Assembly (NCBI GenBank): GCA_964276085.1
Contig: CAXYEO010000026.1
Span: forward strand, 1,305 to 65,304
Origin: an uncultured Thalassobaculaceae bacterium
Lineage (GTDB): Bacteria; Pseudomonadota; Alphaproteobacteria; Thalassobaculales; Thalassobaculaceae
Direction of reading: 5' to 3'
Length of the DNA stretch: 64,000 nt
The notes beneath the pieces are model-generated. The model worked only from the letters and a program-made list of their open reading frames with translations, made no database searches and was not told the origin of the DNA. Position 1 is the stretch's first letter, and every line of letters begins with the position of its first letter. Both the position numbers and the translations under genes were made by a program. Shown piece after piece: positions 23,450 through 31,015 of the stretch.

Positions 23450-26400
23450 TTAGGAGAGCATATTAACGCTCAAACCTATTCCCTTGGAAGGAGATATATT
23501 TTTGATAAGACCAACTGCTAAAGCGTTATTATTAGTCGGCACAATAGAGTTACCCGTCGTAGCTAAATCTTGTATCAGCAGGTATTTTTCAATAAACTTG
23601 ATTGCGTAGTCGGTATTTTTTAACGGCTTAAGAAACTGCGTTTCTACCTCCGGTTCTCTATTCAATCTATTGTTCAGAATTGATAACTCTATGTTCAGAG
23701 CGACGCGCTTTGATTTCATTTTAGAAAACGCACTATCAACCAAAAATTTTGCGTCAGTGATGAGGTTTATTCGATCCGTGACTGATGATACCTCGACACT
23801 GGAACCTCCTCCCGAACCTGTTGCTGTTGCCGCTGTGTTAGCCGTGAAAGTGTATGCTCCATCCGATACATTAGTTATTAAAAATGTATTATTTAAATCT
23901 ACGCCATTGACGTTAGACCCGGCGATGGATCTAAACGAGACAAAGTCATCTTCCTTAAACGTATGATTAGCCTGCGTTACTGTGACCGTAGCACTGTCTT
24001 TTACGGTAGCAAAAGGCGATGATCCAAGGGTTGTGATAGATGCACCCTCTCCATTTAAAACGGCAAAATAATGGTCTGAGAATTTACCATCTAGTACTTC
24101 TTTGATGGTATCTTGCGCCTCGATCGTTACTTTTTTTCCAAGTGTATCTATTTGAACCACGATGTCGCTGGCGAAATCTGCTATAAGGTTCTTTCCATCC
24201 TTTTCAGCACTTGCAAATATCCCGTCTAATTCTGACCTCAATTTTCTTATTTCTGTATCAATTGCTCCTTGTGGATCGGCTACATTGGCGTAAAAATCAA
24301 ATTTAACTTTGTCAGTCTGAAGGTTTTTGCGGACCGTTTCCGCGTTTTTACTAAGAGTATTAGCCCCGGTTATGACATTAGCCGCGTTTCCTGAGTTAAG
24401 GGCCGAAGGTAAAAGTGAAGCAAGCCTTGTACTGTCGCTCAAACCATATGGGCCACTTGAATCTATATCTCTTAACTCTGAATTAATGGCCAGCTGCTCT
24501 GAACCATCCGGACTTGGTCTAATATTATAAGTGTCTTTTAATCTTACAGAAGATCCTCCACCAGCGCCGTTCCCTGTAGCTTGGACGGCGATAGTGCCAC
24601 CGCCTTTTGTCCCACTACTAGCAGTGCTGCCAGCGTTAAATGTAAAGTGATTGGCATTCGTAATACCTGTAATTGTGAAGGTACCATTCAAGGTCAACCC
24701 ACCTACTGCTGAACCTCCACTAAAAGTTACGGTATCATTAACATTGAAGCCATGCCCTTCAATTTCAGCACTTACAGTGGAACTACCCGCTGTCGTCGTC
24801 AATGGGTCTGTCAAAGTGTCAGCAGTTATTGTGTAATGGTTTGAGTCAGTTACAGTCACCAAAAACGTTCTTTGGTCCCCGATGCCTACTCGTAGTCCGT
24901 TTATTGGCGAGCTTGCAACATTATCAAACGTGACATACTCCCCTGTGGAAAAGCCATGACTATTGTGTTCAACGGTGACTGTAGAGCTCCCCGAGGTCGT
25001 TGTGAAAGGGTTAGAGCCAAGTTTATCCAAGTCAAGAAGATTATCTAGAGTCTCCGTCGGTGTCCCGGTGAAAGACACTGAACCTCCACCTCCACTAGCA
25101 GAGCTGGACGCGGAGCTACCAGCTGTAATCGTGTAAGTATTTGCAGAAACACTCGCAATAGTGAAGGTACTATTAACATCTAATCCTCCAACTGCTGATG
25201 CACCACTAAAGGTGATAGAGTCACCAGCTATAAATTGGTGGGCGGCGTCGGTGACAGTTACCGTCGCACTTCCATTATTTGTCGCAAATGGATTATTGGC
25301 TAATGTCCCTGTATCAGTTCCTTTGATTGTGCCTGGGGCCCCAAGTAGACTTACAATATCTGCTCTCAAATCTATATATTCAGCCTGAGTTTCACTTGTG
25401 ATAGTTTGATTAGCCAGCGTTGCTATCTTTCTCAAGTCTTCATCAACTTTTGATACTCGTAAAATTGAATCATCGATTGATGCTTGTCCTTTTGCTAGAC
25501 CAGATGTGTTGAGAGAGGCACCCCAATTTACTTTTCCCGTTTCACTTGCGAACGTGGAATTATTAACAGAGATTATACGGTTAGCATTCGAAAACTCTGT
25601 GTTAGAATCGTTTAGAAACCCTTTGGCAGTGTCAGTATCTGCCAGAGCATCACTTAAACTTGCTGATGCAACAGTTGAGGCTGCACTTGCTATTTTTGTT
25701 AAAAATGTAGCTAAATCTTTATTTGAAGCGCTAATACTACTTGCTGTGGTATCAACGATAGATGCTAGCTCATCTAGAGTGAAGCCAACGGCCCCACCTC
25801 CTCCACTTACTGAGCTAGTAGCATTGCTTTGTGCTGTGATTGTGTACGCATTCGAACTCGTAATCCCACTGACCCTGAATGTTTTATCAAGATCTAGACC
25901 CCCTACTGAGGATCCGTTGCTGTAGGCAACAACATCACCAACAGATAGTCCATGACCATTATGAGTAACAGTTACATCCGGACTACCGTTGCTTGTAGTG
26001 AATGGATTGTTGCCAAGGCTATGGCCATAACCAATAGTATTGCCACCTCCAATAGCCGCAGTGCCTTTGGAGGAAAAAGTAATTGTATATGAATTTTCAG
26101 CAATATCGGAGATTTCAAATGTACCGTTTAAATTCAAACCTCCAACTGTCGATGCATTGCTTAATGTGACATGATCACCAATCGCAAATTTATGGCCTGA
26201 ATGAGCGATTGTGACTTGATCACTGGCATTGACCGAAACAGAACTGCCGCCGCCACTCCCAACCTTTATTTGCGACCCCGCTGTAATCGTATAGGAATTA
26301 GAAGAGACACCAGCCACCTGGAAGTTGCCGTTGAGGCTCACACCATCGATCGATGCACCTCCACTGAAATTAACCGTCTCTCCATTGCTAAACGGATGCC

Positions 26401-28489
26401 CTGTGTGGGCCACCGTTACCTGATCACTGGCATTTACCGAAACAGAACTGCCGCCACCACTCCCAGCCGTAGCTTGCGACGACGCTGTTATCGTATAGGA
26501 ATTAGAAGAGACATCAGCCACCTGGAAGTCGCCATTGAGGCTCACACCATCGATCGATGCACCTCCACTGAAATTAACCGTCTCTCCATTGCTAAACGGA
26601 TGTCCTGTGTGGGCCACCGTGACCTGGTCGCTTGCATTAACCGTAACGGAACCTCCACCACCAGTAGCTGCCGCACTTCCGGGTGACCCTAACAAAAATT
26701 CATATGAATTCGTTGACTGATTCTGTACCGTGAAAGAACTATTCAAGCTCTGCCCGCCAACAGTAGATGCACCGCTGAAAATTACATTATCTCCGTCACT
26801 AAATGGATGCCCTGCGTGGTTCACCTGCACTCTATTCGTCGCGAACGTTCCAGAAGAACCACCACCATTTTCGTTGGTCGCTGGAGGAGAACCCAAATCA
26901 ACACCCACATCAATATGAATTACATTACTGTTTCGAACCGAGTGGACCGTATACGTTCCGTTTAGATCTGCGCCGAACGCATCACTAGTGCCTGAAACCG
27001 TAATCTTATCTCCCGCTTGAAGTCCATGGTCTTCAATTCTCAATTTAAGTATCGCTGTATTGTCACTGTCGCGAGCAGGAGTGGCATCAGCAAACCATTC
27101 CCAAGGATTCCCCGGAAGATCACCACCTTTAATGGTAAATGGATTAGAGCCCAGCGTTCCATCCTGAACGGTAAATGGATTAGAGCCCAGTGTCCCGCTT
27201 TGAACAGTAAATGGATTAGAACCAAGGGTTCCTGATTGCACCGTGATCGGGTTATTTCCAAGAGACCCAGACTGATATGCATAATCAAGCTTCTTCGCCT
27301 CATAAGAATTTGGCTGCCCCGCATCCACGGTGCCTCCACCCGGTTTAAATAAATTAATATTCTTTCCAGTATTTGGATCGGTAAACCTAGCAGTATGGTT
27401 AACAAGATCGGGTATTCTTGCCGCAAGCTCGGCAAAACTTGCTTTTTGAGAGTCAAAATTTGCCTGTATCTCCTCAACGCGCATGTTAGCTACAAGCTCG
27501 TCTAATTGCTTTAATATAGGTTCCAACTCATCAATAGCCGCTTTCGCAGCAAAATTAGCCCCTGCTATATTTTTAAGTTTTTTAACCGCACTCGTTTGAA
27601 TAGCGATTTCTTTGTCGTTTTCTCCACTCTCACTTGTATCCATGTGACTGGGTAAATTAAATTGCAAAGTACGAAGGTTATTTAAGCGAGTATTTATGAT
27701 TGATAAGGTAGACTCCGCATTTGTCACTTGCGATTTCGCAACCTCTACCGCTTGTATATCATTCCTTATTTTTGCTTGATTATCTATACTCAGCTCAGCC
27801 TCCCCAACATTAATGGCGGCTTTTTTCACATCGAATTTAGATTCAATTAATTGTAGTTGTCTCTCAAGCGATTGGGACGCTATCTGCGGAGGTAGTCTTA
27901 AAGCTGTAGTCGCTATCGTTCTCAACTGCATATTACCAAGAAGACCAGCAGTACTTGTTATAGAATTTATGTTTCTTAGAAAGAAAAATGCTTTAGCGAT
28001 TTCACCGTTTCCTCCACCCACATCAAGTTCGAACCTGTTCTGCAGATACTTGTCAATAAGATTTTGCTGGCTACTAGCCGTTGTTAAACTGCGTAATTCA
28101 CGTTTCTCAAAATTCACAAAATTTGCTAATTCGGCAAATCGAGGATCGTTCAATCTATTAGCAAATGAATTCAGATCGCTTGTATCACTTTTAAGGACAG
28201 CCTTGATTTTTCCCCCATTATTAATTTCTGACCCGAGGTCAAAGGCAGTCAAAAGTATTTGAAGGGATTTCCTATCTTTTACTAACTCATCGACATCCTT
28301 GAACCCAGAAACTTTATTTTTAAAGGTCTCGATATCCTTTTGAACATCTTTACGATTAAAGAAACTCTCTCGAAGCTTGCCCTCATTTTTACTAATTTGT
28401 TTAAAGAGCGCCAGTGATGATATAGTATTCTGGGCTGCCCCGCCCACATTACCACCTAAAATACCTAGTGCTGATGCACCATTAAGCAT
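23450..28489 (-). CDS. Giant (1,679 aa) DUF1217-like N-terminal domain, helical-segment and repeat-module protein of unknown function
   Basis: Uninterrupted 5,040-nt ORF with a GGAGA RBS 7 nt upstream of the ATG. Residues 25-225 have DUF1217-type blocks (SLQILLTAFDLGSEINNGGKIKAVLKSD, SFANRLNDPRFAELANF, TALRLPPQIASQSLERQLQLI). These are followed by helical N/Q-rich segments, 12-aa repeats and ten ~70-aa modules. There is no signal peptide. Confidence 0.9.
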   Translation of the reverse strand: MLNGASALGILGGNVGGAAQNTISSLALFKQISKNEGKLRESFFNRKDVQKDIETFKNKVSGFKDVDELVKDRKSLQILLTAFDLGSEINNGGKIKAVLKSDTSDLNSFANRLNDPRFAELANFVNFEKRELRSLTTASSQQNLIDKYLQNRFELDVGGGNGEIAKAFFFLRNINSITSTAGLLGNMQLRTIATTALRLPPQIASQSLERQLQLIESKFDVKKAAINVGEAELSIDNQAKIRNDIQAVEVAKSQVTNAESTLSIINTRLNNLRTLQFNLPSHMDTSESGENDKEIAIQTSAVKKLKNIAGANFAAKAAIDELEPILKQLDELVANMRVEEIQANFDSQKASFAELAARIPDLVNHTARFTDPNTGKNINLFKPGGGTVDAGQPNSYEAKKLDYAYQSGSLGNNPITVQSGTLGSNPFTVQSGTLGSNPFTVQDGTLGSNPFTIKGGDLPGNPWEWFADATPARDSDNTAILKLRIEDHGLQAGDKITVSGTSDAFGADLNGTYTVHSVRNSNVIHIDVGVDLGSPPATNENGGGSSGTFATNRVQVNHAGHPFSDGDNVIFSGASTVGGQSLNSSFTVQNQSTNSYEFLLGSPGSAAATGGGGSVTVNASDQVTVAHTGHPFSNGETVNFSGGASIDGVSLNGDFQVADVSSNSYTITASSQATAGSGGGSSVSVNASDQVTVAHTGHPFSNGETVNFSGGASIDGVSLNGNFQVAGVSSNSYTITAGSQIKVGSGGGSSVSVNASDQVTIAHSGHKFAIGDHVTLSNASTVGGLNLNGTFEISDIAENSYTITFSSKGTAAIGGGNTIGYGHSLGNNPFTTSNGSPDVTVTHNGHGLSVGDVVAYSNGSSVGGLDLDKTFRVSGITSSNAYTITAQSNATSSVSGGGGAVGFTLDELASIVDTTASSISASNKDLATFLTKIASAASTVASASLSDALADTDTAKGFLNDSNTEFSNANRIISVNNSTFASETGKVNWGASLNTSGLAKGQASIDDSILRVSKVDEDLRKIATLANQTITSETQAEYIDLRADIVSLLGAPGTIKGTDTGTLANNPFATNNGSATVTVTDAAHQFIAGDSITFSGASAVGGLDVNSTFTIASVSANTYTITAGSSASSSASGGGGSVSFTGTPTETLDNLLDLDKLGSNPFTTTSGSSTVTVEHNSHGFSTGEYVTFDNVASSPINGLRVGIGDQRTFLVTVTDSNHYTITADTLTDPLTTTAGSSTVSAEIEGHGFNVNDTVTFSGGSAVGGLTLNGTFTITGITNANHFTFNAGSTASSGTKGGGTIAVQATGNGAGGGSSVRLKDTYNIRPSPDGSEQLAINSELRDIDSSGPYGLSDSTRLASLLPSALNSGNAANVITGANTLSKNAETVRKNLQTDKVKFDFYANVADPQGAIDTEIRKLRSELDGIFASAEKDGKNLIADFASDIVVQIDTLGKKVTIEAQDTIKEVLDGKFSDHYFAVLNGEGASITTLGSSPFATVKDSATVTVTQANHTFKEDDFVSFRSIAGSNVNGVDLNNTFLITNVSDGAYTFTANTAATATGSGGGSSVEVSSVTDRINLITDAKFLVDSAFSKMKSKRVALNIELSILNNRLNREPEVETQFLKPLKNTDYAIKFIEKYLLIQDLATTGNSIVPTNNNALAVGLIKNISPSKGIGLSVNMLS
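23840..27058 (-). repeat. Array of ten ~70-aa coding modules (consensus GSNPFTT-x3-GS-x-VTV-x-H-x-GH-x-F-x2-GD-x-V-x-FSG-x-S-x-VGGL-x-LNG-x-F-x-V-x2-V-x3-SYTITA-...-GGGGS), interrupted by two helical spacers
   Basis: Modules are centred on residues 485, 558, 626, 694, 762, 843, 1082, 1176, 1245 and 1508 of the giant ORF. Each has the (H/A)-x-(G/S/A/N)-H-x-(F/L)...(G/D/N)(D/E)-x-(V/I)...LN motif. Confidence 0.8.
26240..26647 (-). repeat. Two nearly identical tandem 204-bp (68-aa) units inside the module array
   Basis: Residues 615-682 and 683-750 differ at only a handful of positions. The DNA is near-identical with a 204-bp period: GATCACTGGCATT recurs at 26218 and 26422. Similarity fades into the flanking units. 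Confidence 0.9.
27092..27271 (-). repeat. Five tandem 36-bp (12-aa) units: SGSLGNNPITVQ / SGTLGSNPFTVQ x2 / DGTLGSNPFTIK / GGDLPGNPWEWF
   Basis: Residues 407-466 of the giant ORF. The DNA shows GGTAAATGGATTAGAGCCCAG repeated in phase. Confidence 0.85.
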
Positions 28490-28536
28490 ATACTGTCTCC
28501 GCTTCTGCAGAATCCCAACGACCTGCTGCGCAGGAC

Positions 28537-28553
28537 ATGCAAATGTCGGGCCA
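28537..28553 (-). promoter_or_regulatory. Candidate sigma-54 (-24/-12) promoter of the giant gene
   Basis: Minus strand reads C-TGGCCCG-ACAT-TTGCA-T against consensus YTGGCACGR-N3-TTGCW, with GG and GC spaced exactly as in the consensus. It lies 48 nt upstream of the ATG at 28489. Confidence 0.6.
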
Positions 28554-28649
28554 GTTCATTTTGAACCTTATTTTAAACGTAAGACTAATTAGAAATATTA
28601 TCAAGTAAAACTAACTAAATACTCAGTACTCTAAAATGAAAGAAAAAAA

Positions 28650-30517: not shown

Positions 30518-31015
30518 ATGAAGAAAATATTAATAATATTTATTCTACCATTAGTCCTTCTTCTTGGGGCTGGGGCCGGAGCATTTTTCTTTGGTTTAAT
30601 TCCAGGCTTTGGTGCTGAAACGAATGTGGCAGCTGAGGCACAATTGTCCGAAAAGAGGGCAGCTGAAAGAAAAATTGTTCCAGAAGCTTTCAATAAAGCA
30701 TCGCTAATGTCCCTGGAATTCTGGATGGATGAATTTGTTATTAATTTACAAACACAGCGACGGAACCCAGTATTTCTTTTGTTTAGTATGGCATTGATCC
30801 TCTCTGGCGAAGAGGCAAAGGCAAAAGTAAAACTACTGGAACCACGCATAAGAGATTCGGTTAATATATTTCTCAGCAGCCTAACCCCGGAACAGTTGTC
30901 CGGCTATGATGGAATTAGAATGTTAAGACAGGAAATTTGGAATAGATCAAATGAAATAATCGAAGATTCAACCTCTTTGGAGAATATCCAAATACTAAAA
31001 TTAACTATCAAATGA
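30518..31015 (+). CDS. fliL: FliL-like flagellar basal-body-associated protein
   Basis: 165-aa ORF with a single N-terminal TM (ILIIFILPLVLLLGAGAGAFFF). FVINLQTQRRNPVFLLFSMALIL...LEPRIRDSVNIFLSSLTPEQLSGYDGIRMLRQEIWNRSNEII matches the FliL pattern (f-v-NL...PriRD...L-G-G...Lr-Ei). Confidence 0.65.
   Translation: MKKILIIFILPLVLLLGAGAGAFFFGLIPGFGAETNVAAEAQLSEKRAAERKIVPEAFNKASLMSLEFWMDEFVINLQTQRRNPVFLLFSMALILSGEEAKAKVKLLEPRIRDSVNIFLSSLTPEQLSGYDGIRMLRQEIWNRSNEIIEDSTSLENIQILKLTIK

What the first reader, a model, noticed from the sequence alone, without database searches (positions are those of the whole stretch)
23840..27058. The ten repeat modules resemble the ubiquitin-E1 FCCH beta-barrel motif
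The module consensus read from the ten copies is VTV-x-H-x-GH-x-F-x2-GD-x-V-x-FSG-x-S-x-VGGL-x-LNG-x-F-x-V-x2-V-x3-SYTI. This lines up motif-for-motif with the FCCH domain of eukaryotic UBA1 as I remember it: [46 protein letters not shown]. The shared elements are a beta strand, H-G-F, G-D-x-V-x-FS, LNG and a hydrophobic strand ending T-F/Y-x-I. FCCH-like domains are occasionally annotated in phage and bacterial surface proteins, but I have not seen an array of ten in a DUF1217 protein. Modules are linked by S/G/A/T-rich GGGGS-type linkers and are often prefaced by LGSNPFTT.
Basis: inference. Interest (0 to 1): 0.7.

Follow-up and report, generated by a model that had tools for sequence, protein, structure and literature searches.

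The report
Beta-barrel repeats in giant flagellar-family protein
A 1,679-residue protein of a marine SAR116 bacterium carries ten small beta-barrel modules that do resemble the ubiquitin-E1 FCCH domain but are closer to the barrel domain of phage endosialidase tailspikes; the module is common in phage and bacterial surface proteins, so this is a new combination of known parts.

Summary
One ORF (23450..28489, minus strand, 1679 aa) holds ten 56-63-aa modules (window 23831-27064) with the stated consensus, Gly/Ser linkers and LGSNPFTT prefaces. Pfam E1_FCCH matches in sum (97 bits, cutoff 29.5), but no single module reaches the cutoff. The phage endosialidase beta-barrel (PF12195) is the closer relative: hhalign 95% over 54 columns against 84% over 27 for UBA1, and Foldseek TM 0.77-0.80 at 1.6-2.2 A against 0.5-0.57 at 3.5-4 A. 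A high-confidence model (pLDDT 93) is a small all-beta barrel, not an Ig fold. The module is widespread (2,752 cluster representatives, arrays up to 24 copies) in phage virion proteins, depolymerase-like proteins, giant surface proteins and four FlgE-type hook proteins. The DUF1217 pairing is rare: one SAR116-type family with 2-10 modules. Short DUF1217 proteins lie directly after flagellin-flaF-flbT in flagellar clusters of other alphaproteobacteria. This gene has a conserved sigma-54-type promoter, a fliL gene 2 kb away, and no cysteines. Best reading: an exported, flagellum-associated scaffold carrying outward-facing, possibly glycan-binding barrels. The fold assignment is solid; the function is inferred.

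The parts
23450..28489 (-). Complete ORF of 1679 aa (stop codon included): the giant DUF1217-family protein that contains all ten modules
   Evidence: ORF list. Pfam: DUF1217 + E1_FCCH + End_beta_barrel. 22 full-length homologue clusters with the same Pfam content. No cysteines; about 50% S/T/G/A/N.
27821..28447 (-). N-terminal helical DUF1217 domain (aa 15-223)
   Evidence: Pfam PF06748, 114 bits, aa 82-223. PDB 2o8s (Agrobacterium AGR_C_984p), E 3.6e-20 over aa 15-223. Aligns to short flagellar-cluster DUF1217 proteins over aa 23-225.
27123..27232 (-). Free-standing tandem copies of the 12-residue TLGSNPFTVQSG motif, the module's first-strand preface without a barrel
   Evidence: Tandem Repeats Finder: 36 bp x 3.1 copies, 79% matches. 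Protein sequence at about aa 421-452.
25820..27064 (-). Module block 1: M1-M6 (aa 476-890), joined by Gly/Ser-rich linkers of 11-23 aa
   Evidence: M3-M5 form a 204-bp DNA tandem repeat, 2.2 copies at 89% matches, at 26211-26663.
25283..25819 (-). Inter-block segment 1 (aa 891-1069), Ala/Ser/Thr-rich; helical character is my reading of the sequence and was not modelled for this protein
   Evidence: Sequence. No Pfam family reaches its cutoff.
24623..25282 (-). Module block 2: M7-M9 (aa 1070-1289). M7 was the module modelled.
   Evidence: AlphaFold model of aa 1062-1129: pLDDT 93.4, five strands. The compact relative P0052 keeps only the equivalents of M8-M9.
24008..24622 (-). Inter-block segment 2 (aa 1290-1494): Gly-rich linker followed by a helical region
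   Evidence: Sequence. The only hit is a sub-threshold Flagellin_N match of 12 bits. The equivalent region of the P0052 model shows helices, but at pLDDT below 50.
23831..24007 (-). Module M10 (aa 1495-1553)
23453..23788 (-). Conserved C-terminal domain (aa 1568-1679) containing the invariant FLxPLxNTDYAxKFIEKYLL motif
   Evidence: Alignment A2, 77% mean column identity. Present in P0052, P0046 and P0059. Only a weak resemblance to the tail of short DUF1217 proteins (hhalign P 0.006, probability 6%).
28539..28553 (-). Sigma-54-type (-24/-12) promoter motif TGGCCCgacatTTGC, 50-64 nt upstream of the ATG
   Evidence: Sequence. Two exact TGGCNC-N5-TTGC matches in 64 kb against 0.47 expected; the other lies inside an ORF. 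Same motif at the same offset in L001, L002, L008 and L009, with a variant in L005. The upstream 140 bp is 93% identical across loci whose proteins are 75-91% identical.
30518..31015 (+). fliL homologue (165 aa), 2 kb from the gene and separated from it by a gamma-glutamyltransferase gene; this arrangement is syntenic in all related loci
   Evidence: Pfam FliL, 51.3 bits against a cutoff of 24.6. The same FliL-GGT-DUF1217 order occurs in L005, L008 and L009.

Best explanation
The ten repeats are independently folding beta-barrel domains of about 60 residues. They belong to the sequence and fold group that Pfam splits between End_beta_barrel (the barrel domain of phage endosialidase tailspikes) and E1_FCCH. 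They are closest to the endosialidase and phage type. The LGSNPFTT preface forms the barrel's first strand, and the conserved H-G-[FL]-x2-G-D-x-V-x-F-S core is shared with both named families.

The modules are strung on flexible Gly/Ser linkers in three blocks, between the N-terminal DUF1217 domain and a conserved C-terminal domain, with two non-repeat segments between the blocks. The host protein is a lineage-specific (SAR116-type), greatly expanded member of DUF1217. In other alphaproteobacteria that family is encoded inside flagellar gene clusters, usually directly after flagellin-flaF-flbT.

Inferred mechanism. The protein is made from a sigma-54-type promoter, as late flagellar genes are in Caulobacter-type alphaproteobacteria. 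It is exported without a classical signal peptide, possibly through the flagellar export apparatus. It then acts at or on the flagellum, with the barrels projecting outward as decoration or spacer domains, or as glycan-binding domains. This would parallel the outward-facing FCCH-like domain on siphophage tail tubes and the same module inserted in some FlgE hook proteins. Copy number (2-10 across the family) changes by tandem duplication and loss.

Shown: repeat anatomy, fold, closest relatives, distribution, copy-number variation, promoter motif conservation, and the flagellar context of the DUF1217 family. Inferred: export, flagellar location, and a decoration or lectin role.
For: Fold and family. 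Pfam gives E1_FCCH 97.2 bits and End_beta_barrel 40.1 bits for the whole protein. The profile of 41 modules hits phi92 endosialidase at E 6.9e-5 over the whole module and endoNF at 0.008. hhalign gives 95%, 89% and 84% for phi92, K1F and UBA1. The AlphaFold model has pLDDT 93.4. Foldseek against the PDB gives TM 0.77-0.80 for endosialidases, then UBA1 at 0.49-0.57, then F1/V1-ATPase N-terminal barrels. Foldseek against BFVD returns many phage tail-fibre and tailspike proteins, the top one at TM 0.93 and 40% identity.

Outward decoration precedent. The FCCH domain of siphophage tail-tube proteins faces the exterior (PMC13576161). The same module subtype, with the NPF(S/T)T preface and about 45% identity, is inserted in FlgE hook proteins P0053 and P0063, and two more FlgE-type proteins appear in the census.

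Flagellar link of the scaffold. Short DUF1217 genes directly follow flaF-flbT in flagellar clusters of Azospirillum, Sulfitobacter, Salipiger and Rhodovastum. In Brucella the gene lies between motA and flgF (PMC7410920). fliL lies 2 kb away here, and syntenically in relatives. A sigma-54-type motif is conserved at a fixed offset upstream of all family members, and a similar motif sits upstream of fliK in the module-bearing FlgE loci L004 and L006. SAR116 strain HIMB100 has 41 COG cell-motility genes (PMC3368413).

Export. There are no cysteines in 1679 aa, the composition is S/T/G/A/N-rich, and I see no classical signal peptide in the N-terminus (my reading of the sequence; no predictor was run).

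Copy-number dynamics. Homologues carry 6-10 modules and P0052 carries 2. M3-M5 form a 204-bp tandem repeat at 89% identity.
Against: No experiment or structure assigns any function to DUF1217.

In this lineage the gene is not inside a flagellar cluster. Its immediate neighbours are metabolic genes: gamma-glutamyltransferase, aspartate dehydrogenase, TctC and DUF1611.

Sigma-54 promoters are not specific to flagella. With 0.47 exact matches expected per 64 kb, one motif alone is weak evidence; conservation of the whole upstream region shows regulation but not which regulator.

The FlgE proteins with this module come from other organisms of higher GC content (51-59% against 42-45%).

The module is just as common in phage receptor-binding proteins and in non-flagellar giant surface proteins with PA14, LTD, CotH or RTX domains.

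Leads towards flagellin-like termini did not hold up.

The full-length model of the compact relative was unusable (pLDDT 41), so the overall architecture is unknown.

Glycan binding is extrapolated from what I recall of the endosialidase barrel. No binding residues were compared.
Confidence: 0.55

Rival explanations
1. The modules are genuine FCCH domains in the E1 sense. The protein would then be evolutionarily or functionally tied to ubiquitin-like activation, or the modules would be the direct bacterial ancestors of the eukaryotic FCCH domain.
For: The Pfam E1_FCCH model gives the largest summed score among repeat families (97.2 bits). The H-G-F / G-D-x-V-x-F-S / L-N-G motifs align with human UBA1 (hhalign 84%). 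UBA1 chains appear in the fold search.
Against: No ThiF/adenylation, UFD or other E1 domain is found anywhere in the protein, even at E up to 10. Each module is below the E1_FCCH cutoff. The UBA1 alignment covers only 17-27 residues. The structural match to UBA1 (TM 0.49-0.57, rmsd 3.5-4 A) is much poorer than to the endosialidase barrels. The module's relatives are phage virion proteins and bacterial surface or flagellar proteins.
Confidence: 0.05
2. The protein is a cell-surface or secreted adhesin, or a protective coat or decoy protein, unrelated to the flagellum. Its barrels would bind polysaccharides on particles, algae or other cells, or mimic phage receptor-binding domains. DUF1217 would merely be an anchoring or secretion domain.
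For: The gene has non-flagellar neighbours here. The same module occurs in giant surface proteins with PA14, LTD, CotH and RTX domains and in phage depolymerase-like proteins. The closest solved relative is a barrel in a polysaccharide-degrading tailspike. The composition is S/T/G/A/N-rich with no cysteines. One Rhizobium protein with several DUF1217 copies also sits in a non-flagellar context.
Against: DUF1217 is otherwise tightly linked to flaF-flbT and flagellar clusters in four genera from two alphaproteobacterial orders, and to a flagellar locus in Brucella. fliL is a conserved near neighbour. I see no Sec signal peptide, lipobox, RTX or other recognisable secretion signal (sequence). The promoter motif is the same type as the one upstream of fliK in the module-bearing FlgE loci.
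Confidence: 0.3
3. The region is a remnant or domesticated piece of a prophage or gene-transfer-agent tail fibre or tailspike that became fused to a host gene.
For: The module is most abundant in phage virion proteins. Marine Roseobacter and Pelagibacter phages carry copies at 42-45% identity. There is a PHROG hit, to a family of unknown function.
Against: There are no phage genes in the neighbourhood. Chromosomal synteny is conserved across relatives whose proteins are down to 46-49% identical. GC content (43.4%) is close to that of the window (41.7%). The modules lie between conserved host-type N- and C-terminal domains, and their number varies by internal duplication. Ancient acquisition of the module from phages is not excluded.
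Confidence: 0.05
4. The modules are Ig-like (BIg) or carboxypeptidase-regulatory-like beta-sandwich repeats, mislabelled because of their T/S/V-rich strands.
For: Weak sub-threshold Pfam hits to Big_1, Big_3_5, CarboxypepD_reg and EMC7_beta-sandw for single modules (12-18 bits).
Against: All of these are well below their cutoffs. The high-confidence model matches barrels (endosialidase, UBA1 FCCH, ATPase N-terminal barrels), and no Ig-fold entry appears among the top 50 PDB hits.
Confidence: 0.03

Closest known systems
Beta-barrel domain of bacteriophage endosialidase tailspikes (Pfam PF12195 End_beta_barrel; PDB 4hiz phi92, 1v0e/3gvj/3gvk/3ju4 K1F endoNF)
   Same: It has the same size and fold (Foldseek TM 0.77-0.80, rmsd 1.6-2.2 A over 63-64 columns, 20-30% identity). 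The sequence similarity covers the full module, including T-x-T, H-G-L-x-V-G-D-x-V-x-F-S-N and the final V-x-S-V...F-T-V strands. Both occur in extracellular, polysaccharide-facing proteins.
   Different: In endosialidases it is a single copy inserted into a sialidase beta-propeller. Here there are ten copies on flexible linkers, with no catalytic domain. Single modules score 15-24 bits against a cutoff of 35. That the endosialidase barrel binds sialic acid is my recollection of Stummeyer et al. 2005, cited in the paper read. Whether these modules bind any sugar was not tested.
FCCH (first catalytic cysteine half-domain) of eukaryotic ubiquitin-activating enzyme E1 (Pfam PF16190; UBA1 PDB 2lzj/2v31, 6dc6, 4p22)
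   Same: Both are small closed beta-barrels. They share the central motif (R)H-G-F-x-x-G-D-x-V-x-F-S...L-N-G. The Pfam model hits 8 of 10 modules.
   Different: Only 17-27 residues align. The structural match is moderate (TM 0.49-0.57, rmsd 3.5-4 A). There is no E1 context. FCCH is a single insertion in an adenylation domain of a cytoplasmic enzyme, whereas these are tandem modules in a probably exported bacterial protein.
Outward-facing 'FCCH' decoration domain of siphophage tail-tube proteins (gp39/gp13 of phages NBD2/MED16; PMC13576161)
   Same: It has the same Pfam label and is used as an exterior decoration on a helical tubular assembly. This is the closest functional analogy to module-bearing FlgE and, by inference, to this protein.
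   Different: There is one copy per subunit, fused to a tail-tube barrel, and not ten copies on a DUF1217 scaffold. I made no direct sequence or structure comparison with gp39 or gp13.
Short DUF1217 proteins of alphaproteobacterial flagellar clusters (PDB 2o8s AGR_C_984p; Azospirillum, Sulfitobacter, Salipiger; Brucella BMEII1108)
   Same: The N-terminal approximately 210 residues are homologous (E 3.6e-20 to 2o8s; 25-30% identity to the short proteins).
   Different: Those proteins are 264-323 aa, all-helical, and sit next to flaF-flbT or motA-flgF. This one is 1679 aa with about 1,350 extra residues and lies outside a flagellar cluster, though fliL is near. Rhodovastum has a 593-aa version with a different repeat inserted inside the DUF1217 domain.
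FlgE hook proteins with inserted copies of the same module (P0053 1195 aa, P0063 1107 aa; metagenomic)
   Same: They carry the same module subtype, including the TLGNNPFSTT preface, at about 45% identity to M7-M9, in 4-5 copies in tandem. A sigma-54-type motif sits upstream of fliK in both loci.
   Different: The scaffold is a bona fide axial protein (Flg_bb_rod, FlgE D1/D2 and Flg_bbr_C domains). The source organisms have higher GC content.

Membership tests
Pfam E1_FCCH (PF16190) | Score at or above the Pfam gathering cutoff (29.5 bits) | tested here: inconclusive
   The whole protein scores 97.2 bits summed over 8 stretches. Every module scanned alone scores 15.3-24.9 bits, below the cutoff, and two modules (M1, M6) do not hit at all.
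Pfam E1_FCCH (PF16190) | Full-length alignment to a genuine E1 FCCH domain | tested here: not met
   hhalign against human UBA1 FCCH aligns 27 columns at 84% probability. hmmsearch aligns 17 residues at E 0.11-2. The last strands are not aligned.
Pfam E1_FCCH (PF16190) | Same fold as the FCCH barrel of UBA1 | tested here: inconclusive
   Foldseek gives TM 0.49-0.57, rmsd 3.3-4.1 A and probability 0.38-0.82 to the well-superposed UBA1/UBA6 chains (one further UBA1 entry, 9mc7_A, aligns at rmsd 11.6 A). That indicates the same general barrel class, but it is no better than marginally above the F1/V1-ATPase N-terminal barrels (TM 0.44-0.52). The tool did not print target coordinates, so I infer that the aligned part is the FCCH region from the sequence hits.
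Pfam E1_FCCH (PF16190) | Context: inserted in the adenylation domain of an E1 enzyme (ThiF and other E1 domains present) | tested here: not met
   No ThiF or other E1 family is found in the 1679-aa protein, even at E up to 10.
Pfam End_beta_barrel (PF12195), endosialidase beta-barrel | Score at or above the Pfam gathering cutoff (35 bits) | tested here: inconclusive
   The whole protein scores 40.1 bits over 6 stretches. Single modules score 14.8-24.3 bits, and 8 of 10 hit.
Pfam End_beta_barrel (PF12195), endosialidase beta-barrel | Full-length sequence similarity to solved endosialidase barrels | tested here: met
   The module profile hits 4hiz residues 193-251 at E 6.9e-5, covering profile positions 8-69, and endoNF at E 0.008. 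hhalign gives 95.3% over 54 columns and 89.2% over 46 columns.
Pfam End_beta_barrel (PF12195), endosialidase beta-barrel | Same three-dimensional fold | tested here: met
   A model with pLDDT 93.4 superposes on 4hiz, 3gvk and 1v0e at TM 0.77-0.80, rmsd 1.6-2.2 A, probability 1.00. The Foldseek E-values are modest (0.004-0.1) because the domain is short.
Pfam End_beta_barrel (PF12195), endosialidase beta-barrel | Sialic-acid or glycan binding by the barrel; context inside a sialidase propeller | not testable with these tools
   No sialidase or BNR domain is present in this protein. Ligand-binding residues could not be compared, and binding needs experiments.
DUF1217 (PF06748) | Score at or above the Pfam gathering cutoff (22.9 bits) and similarity to the solved member 2o8s | tested here: met
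   114.2 bits over aa 82-223, covering 142 of 149 model positions. 2o8s matches at E 3.6e-20 over aa 15-223.
DUF1217 (PF06748) | Usual genomic context in or next to flagellar genes | tested here: inconclusive
   Short members follow flaF-flbT in four genera. Here only fliL is nearby, 2 kb away, among metabolic genes, plus a sigma-54-type promoter.
Flagellar axial proteins (flagellin, FlgK, FlgL, FlgE) | Conserved N- and C-terminal helical domains (Flagellin_N/C, Flg_bb_rod, Flg_bbr_C) | tested here: not met
   The only hits are Flagellin_N at 12.1 bits (cutoff 26.6), on an internal segment, and a phmmer hit to flagellin 9n8m at E 0.28. That hit disappeared when the family profile was used.

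The most novel reading that the evidence does not exclude
The giant DUF1217 protein would be a previously unrecognised extracellular component of the flagellum in the abundant SAR116 marine clade. DUF1217 would be a flagellar structural scaffold, for example associated with the filament or hook, or acting as a cap in alphaproteobacteria. The ten phage-type barrels would form an outer lectin-like coat, drawn from the same module pool as marine phage receptor-binding proteins and as the FlgE hooks of other bacteria. The coat would mediate glycan or particle attachment, or act as a shield or decoy against flagellum-targeting phages. This would also give the uncharacterised DUF1217 family its first function.
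Probability: 0.2. Interest if true: 0.65.

Novelty: new variant of a known kind. Interest (0 to 1): 0.38.

Why it matters
The domain type itself is known and is already labelled by automated Pfam annotation, so the core resemblance is not a discovery.

Three things are worth keeping. First, the FCCH label on bacterial and phage proteins is better read as 'endosialidase-type small barrel'. It marks an outward-facing decoration or possible glycan-binding module and has nothing to do with ubiquitin chemistry.

Second, a rare architecture places 2-10 of these barrels on DUF1217, an uncharacterised family that is firmly embedded next to flaF-flbT in alphaproteobacterial flagellar clusters. The same module also decorates some FlgE hooks. 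Together these suggest a testable idea: DUF1217 is an exported flagellar protein, and some marine bacteria decorate their flagella with phage-like barrels.

Third, SAR116 is among the most abundant surface-ocean heterotrophs and its motility is undocumented, so a large conserved protein with a sigma-54-type promoter and a flagellar-family scaffold is a useful handle on it.

Tried and rejected
1. Flagellin-like termini. phmmer of the C-terminal 136 aa gave flagellin 9n8m at E 0.28. The family profile A2 then found no flagellin, and Pfam Flagellin_N scored only 12 bits on an internal segment. Rejected as unsupported.

2. Full-length architecture. The AlphaFold model of the compact relative P0052 (936 aa, 16-sequence alignment) had mean pLDDT 41.3 and pTM 0.22. 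Only the two barrels were confident. I did not use it for fold search or interpretation.

3. Insertion model, in which the module array is inserted between the DUF1217 core and its own C-terminal tail. The tails of short DUF1217 proteins share a K[FL]I[DE]R[FY]..M.D..G pattern that resembles KFIEKYLLIQDLATTG. However, hhalign gave P 0.006 and probability 6% over 27 columns, and hmmsearch scores were 0-7 bits. I keep this as a lead only.

4. Word-indexed homology searches with the module profile and with the DUF1217 domain returned only fragments of the same family. They gave no names and no architectures.

5. Literature. I found no paper on DUF1217 function, 2o8s or PF06748, and no statement on flagella in the SAR116 phylogenomics paper.

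6. Known RNA families around the gene: none found. The conserved 5' leader folds only modestly better than shuffled sequence (z -1.97).

7. NCBIfam gave no meaningful hit, and PHROGs gave only one family of unknown function.

8. Same-organism link between module-bearing FlgE and this protein. Rejected, because the FlgE loci have 51-59% GC against 42-45% here.

9. Ig-like or CarboxypepD_reg readings of the module. Rejected on the fold search.


Full report
WHAT IS THERE

The finding lies wholly inside one ORF on the minus strand, window 23450..28489, encoding 1679 aa. I located the repeats independently by motif search and alignment. There are ten modules of 56-63 residues:
- M1 aa 476-534
- M2 aa 548-603
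- M3 aa 616-672
- M4 aa 684-740
- M5 aa 752-809
- M6 aa 833-890
- M7 aa 1070-1126
- M8 aa 1164-1226
- M9 aa 1233-1289
- M10 aa 1495-1553

Together they span window 23831-27064, which agrees with the stated 23840-27058. An HMM built from the ten copies recovers exactly ten, at 67-87 bits each.

His23 is nearly invariant and Gly41 is invariant.

The short linkers are Gly/Ser-rich and 11-23 aa long. The LGSNPFTT preface precedes M6, M7, M8 and M10. It also occurs as free-standing 12-residue tandem copies upstream of M1, which correspond to a 36-bp DNA repeat.

The modules form three blocks: M1-M6, M7-M9 and M10. Non-repeat segments of 179 and 205 aa separate the blocks. At the DNA level, M3-M5 form a 204-bp tandem repeat at 89% identity, which indicates recent duplication.

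WHAT THE MODULE IS

Pfam scores for the whole protein are DUF1217 114 bits, E1_FCCH 97.2 bits (8 stretches, cutoff 29.5) and End_beta_barrel 40.1 bits (6 stretches, cutoff 35).

Scanned one at a time, no module reaches either cutoff: E1_FCCH gives 15-25 bits for 8 of 10 modules, and End_beta_barrel gives 15-24 bits for 8 of 10. The two models compete for the same residues.

Head-to-head comparisons favour the phage domain:

| Test | Endosialidase barrel | UBA1 FCCH |
|---|---|---|
| Module profile against PDB sequences | phi92 (4hiz) E 6.9e-5 across the whole module; K1F endoNF E 0.008 | E 0.11-2, only 17 residues aligned |
| hhalign | phi92 95.3% over 54 columns; K1F 89.2% over 46 columns | 83.7% over 27 columns |
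| Foldseek against the PDB | TM 0.77-0.80, rmsd 1.6-2.2 A, 20-30% identity | TM 0.49-0.57, rmsd about 3.5-4 A |

An AlphaFold model of M7 with its preface, built from A1, is confident (pLDDT 93.4, pTM 0.79). It is a compact all-beta domain, and the preface forms the first strand. After endosialidases and UBA1/UBA6, the Foldseek PDB ranking continues with the N-terminal barrels of F1/V1-ATPases. No Ig fold appears.

Against predicted viral structures, the best hits are phage tail-fibre, tailspike and uncharacterised virion proteins, with the top hit at TM 0.93 and 40% identity.

So the modules are small beta-barrels of the group that Pfam labels either End_beta_barrel or E1_FCCH. The FCCH resemblance is real but partial and more distant. 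The endosialidase or phage barrel is the better name.

HOW COMMON IT IS

An exhaustive profile search of 1.84 billion cluster representatives finds 2,752 proteins at E <= 1e-3 and 651 at E <= 1e-10. Several have 10-24 matched stretches, so a ten-copy array is not exceptional.

I scanned about 75 of the best hits against Pfam. The label alternates between End_beta_barrel and E1_FCCH. The partner domains were:
- pectate-lyase-like depolymerases
- RTX repeats
- PA14, LTD and CotH domains in a 4,855-aa giant
- FlgE-type hook proteins, four times

Most of the remaining hits are proteins of about 670 aa with two modules and no other Pfam domain among those scanned individually (P0061, P0066). They resemble the two-module, 707-aa 'constituent protein' gp40 of Roseobacter phage CRP-902, which is encoded near a tail-fibre gene.

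The FlgE-borne modules are the same subtype as this protein's modules, with the TLGNNPFSTT preface and about 45% identity to M7-M9. They come from organisms of higher GC content.

The combination with DUF1217 is rare. Among the top 150 representatives, only P0006, P0052 and two fragments share the DUF1217 N-terminus or the conserved C-terminus.

The family comprises 22 clusters at 90% identity, all carrying PF06748 + PF12195 + PF16190. They have 6-10 modules. A compact 936-aa relative has two modules.

The organism is of SAR116 type. The two best genome matches are a 'Rhodospirillaceae' MAG (91% identity) and a SAR116 single-cell genome (75% identity).

WHAT THE HOST PROTEIN IS

The N-terminal approximately 210 residues are homologous to the solved all-helical DUF1217 protein 2o8s from Agrobacterium (E 3.6e-20). 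No function is published for the family. Annotated genomes do give a consistent context:
- In Azospirillum, Sulfitobacter, Salipiger and Rhodovastum, the DUF1217 gene follows flagellin-flaF-flbT inside flagellar clusters.
- In Brucella it lies between motA and flgF (PMC7410920).

The Rhodovastum protein (593 aa) has a different repeat of about 320 aa inserted inside its DUF1217 domain. This scaffold therefore tolerates inserted repeat arrays in more than one lineage.

In the window, the immediate neighbours are metabolic genes: gamma-glutamyltransferase, aspartate dehydrogenase, TctC and DUF1611. A fliL homologue lies 2 kb away. The order FliL-GGT-DUF1217 is conserved in all related loci examined.

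Between 50 and 64 nt upstream of the ATG sits TGGCCCgacatTTGC, a sigma-54 -24/-12 type motif. There are two exact matches in 64 kb against 0.47 expected, and the other match lies inside an ORF.

The motif recurs at the same offset in L001, L002, L008 and L009, and as a variant in L005. A canonical TGGCACagggaTTGCT sits upstream of fliK in L004, and a match to the looser pattern TGGC-N7-TTGC sits upstream of fliK in L006. These are the two loci whose FlgE carries the module.

The whole 140-bp upstream region is 93% identical between loci whose proteins are 75-91% identical. That late flagellar genes of Caulobacter-type alphaproteobacteria use sigma-54 promoters of the form TGGCCC-N5-TTGC comes from my own knowledge and is not a tool result.

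The protein has no cysteines and is about 50% S/T/G/A/N. I see no classical signal peptide in its N-terminus, but that is my reading and no predictor was run. SAR116 strain HIMB100 has 41 COG cell-motility genes, and its motility is recorded as unknown (PMC3368413).

MOST LIKELY MECHANISM

Shown: ten autonomous endosialidase-type barrels sit on flexible linkers within a DUF1217-family protein; their copy number changes by tandem duplication; the promoter and leader are conserved; the scaffold family is flagellum-linked.

Inferred: the protein is exported, possibly through the flagellar apparatus, and acts at the flagellum. The barrels would project outward as decoration, spacer or glycan-binding modules. 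The parallels are the outward-facing FCCH-type domain on siphophage tail tubes (PMC13576161) and the module-bearing FlgE hooks.

I put about 0.9 on the fold and family assignment and about 0.5 on a flagellar association. I put less on a lectin role. The overall confidence of 0.55 reflects the combined statement.

The main rival (0.3) is a non-flagellar surface adhesin or coat protein. Readings as a true E1-type FCCH, a prophage remnant or an Ig-like repeat are each at or below 0.05.

LIMITS

- The full-length model of the compact relative failed (pLDDT 41), so the overall architecture is unknown.
- Leads towards flagellin-like termini did not hold up.
- The idea that the array is an insertion before the DUF1217 C-terminal tail has only weak support.
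- Foldseek did not report target coordinates, so I infer that the UBA1 hits fall on the FCCH region from the sequence matches.

VERDICT

The array size is not unusual, and automated annotation already marks these domains. The architecture is a new variant of known parts and carries a testable link to the flagellum. Interest is moderate to low, at 0.38.

Noticed in passing
window 28539-28553 (- strand); L001 9937-9951, L002 6722-6736, L008/L009 9936-9950, L005 7682-7697; L004 43-57 and L006 1833-1847 upstream of fliK: A sigma-54-type -24/-12 promoter motif (TGGCCC-N5-TTGC) sits 50-64 nt upstream of the giant DUF1217 gene. It is conserved at the same offset in all relatives examined. The same kind of motif sits upstream of fliK in the two loci whose FlgE carries the same beta-barrel module (canonical TGGCAC-N5-TTGCT in L004; a match to the looser TGGC-N7-TTGC pattern in L006).
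   Followed up: partly
window 28490-28620 (- strand): The 140-bp region upstream of the gene is 93% identical among loci whose proteins are only 75-91% identical. It includes an invariant TTTTACTTGATAATATTT box about 45-62 nt upstream of the promoter motif, and a leader with the hairpin CCTGCgaaGCAGG plus CTGCAG. The leader folds at z = -2.0 relative to shuffles, and there is no Rfam match. It may be an activator or IHF site and a translational control element.
   Followed up: partly
window 30518-31015 (+): An isolated fliL homologue (Pfam FliL, 51 bits) lies directly downstream of a gamma-glutamyltransferase gene among metabolic genes. The FliL-GGT-DUF1217 arrangement is conserved in all related loci.
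   Followed up: partly
L004 2959-6546 (P0053); L006 4351-7674 and L007 953-4276 (P0063): These are giant FlgE hook proteins (1107-1195 aa) from other bacteria of higher GC content. Each carries 4-5 copies of the same endosialidase/FCCH-type barrel inserted after the D1 domain. I found no paper linking FCCH-type domains to flagella.
   Followed up: partly
L014 5968-7749 (Rhodovastum atsumiense plasmid RHOApa): A 593-aa DUF1217 protein, encoded after flagellin-flaF-flbT, has about 320 aa of a different three-copy repeat inserted inside the DUF1217 domain. It is a second, independent example of repeat expansion within this scaffold.
   Followed up: no
L013 4519-6702 (Rhizobium sp. NLR16a plasmid p1): A 727-aa protein consists of about four to five tandem DUF1217 copies. 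It sits in a non-flagellar neighbourhood that includes a chemoreceptor gene, a toxin-antitoxin pair and ABC transporter genes.
   Followed up: no
window 27123-27232 (- strand; about aa 421-452): Tandem copies of the 12-residue unit TLGSNPFTVQSG occur here. This unit is the first-strand preface of the module, repeated without the barrel. Its role is unknown.
   Followed up: no
window 23453-23788 (- strand; aa 1568-1679): The C-terminal domain carries the invariant motif FLxPLxNTDYAxKFIEKYLL. It resembles the K[FL]I[DE]R[FY]..M.D..G tail of short DUF1217 proteins, but only weakly (hhalign P 0.006, probability 6%). If the resemblance is real, the whole module-bearing region is an insertion inside a DUF1217 protein.
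   Followed up: partly
window 26201-26686 (+) and 25506-25925 (+): ORFs of 161 and 139 aa lie antisense to the repeat region. The 161-aa ORF is itself internally repetitive because it mirrors the 204-bp tandem repeat. These are almost certainly artefacts of the repeats and not genes.
   Followed up: no
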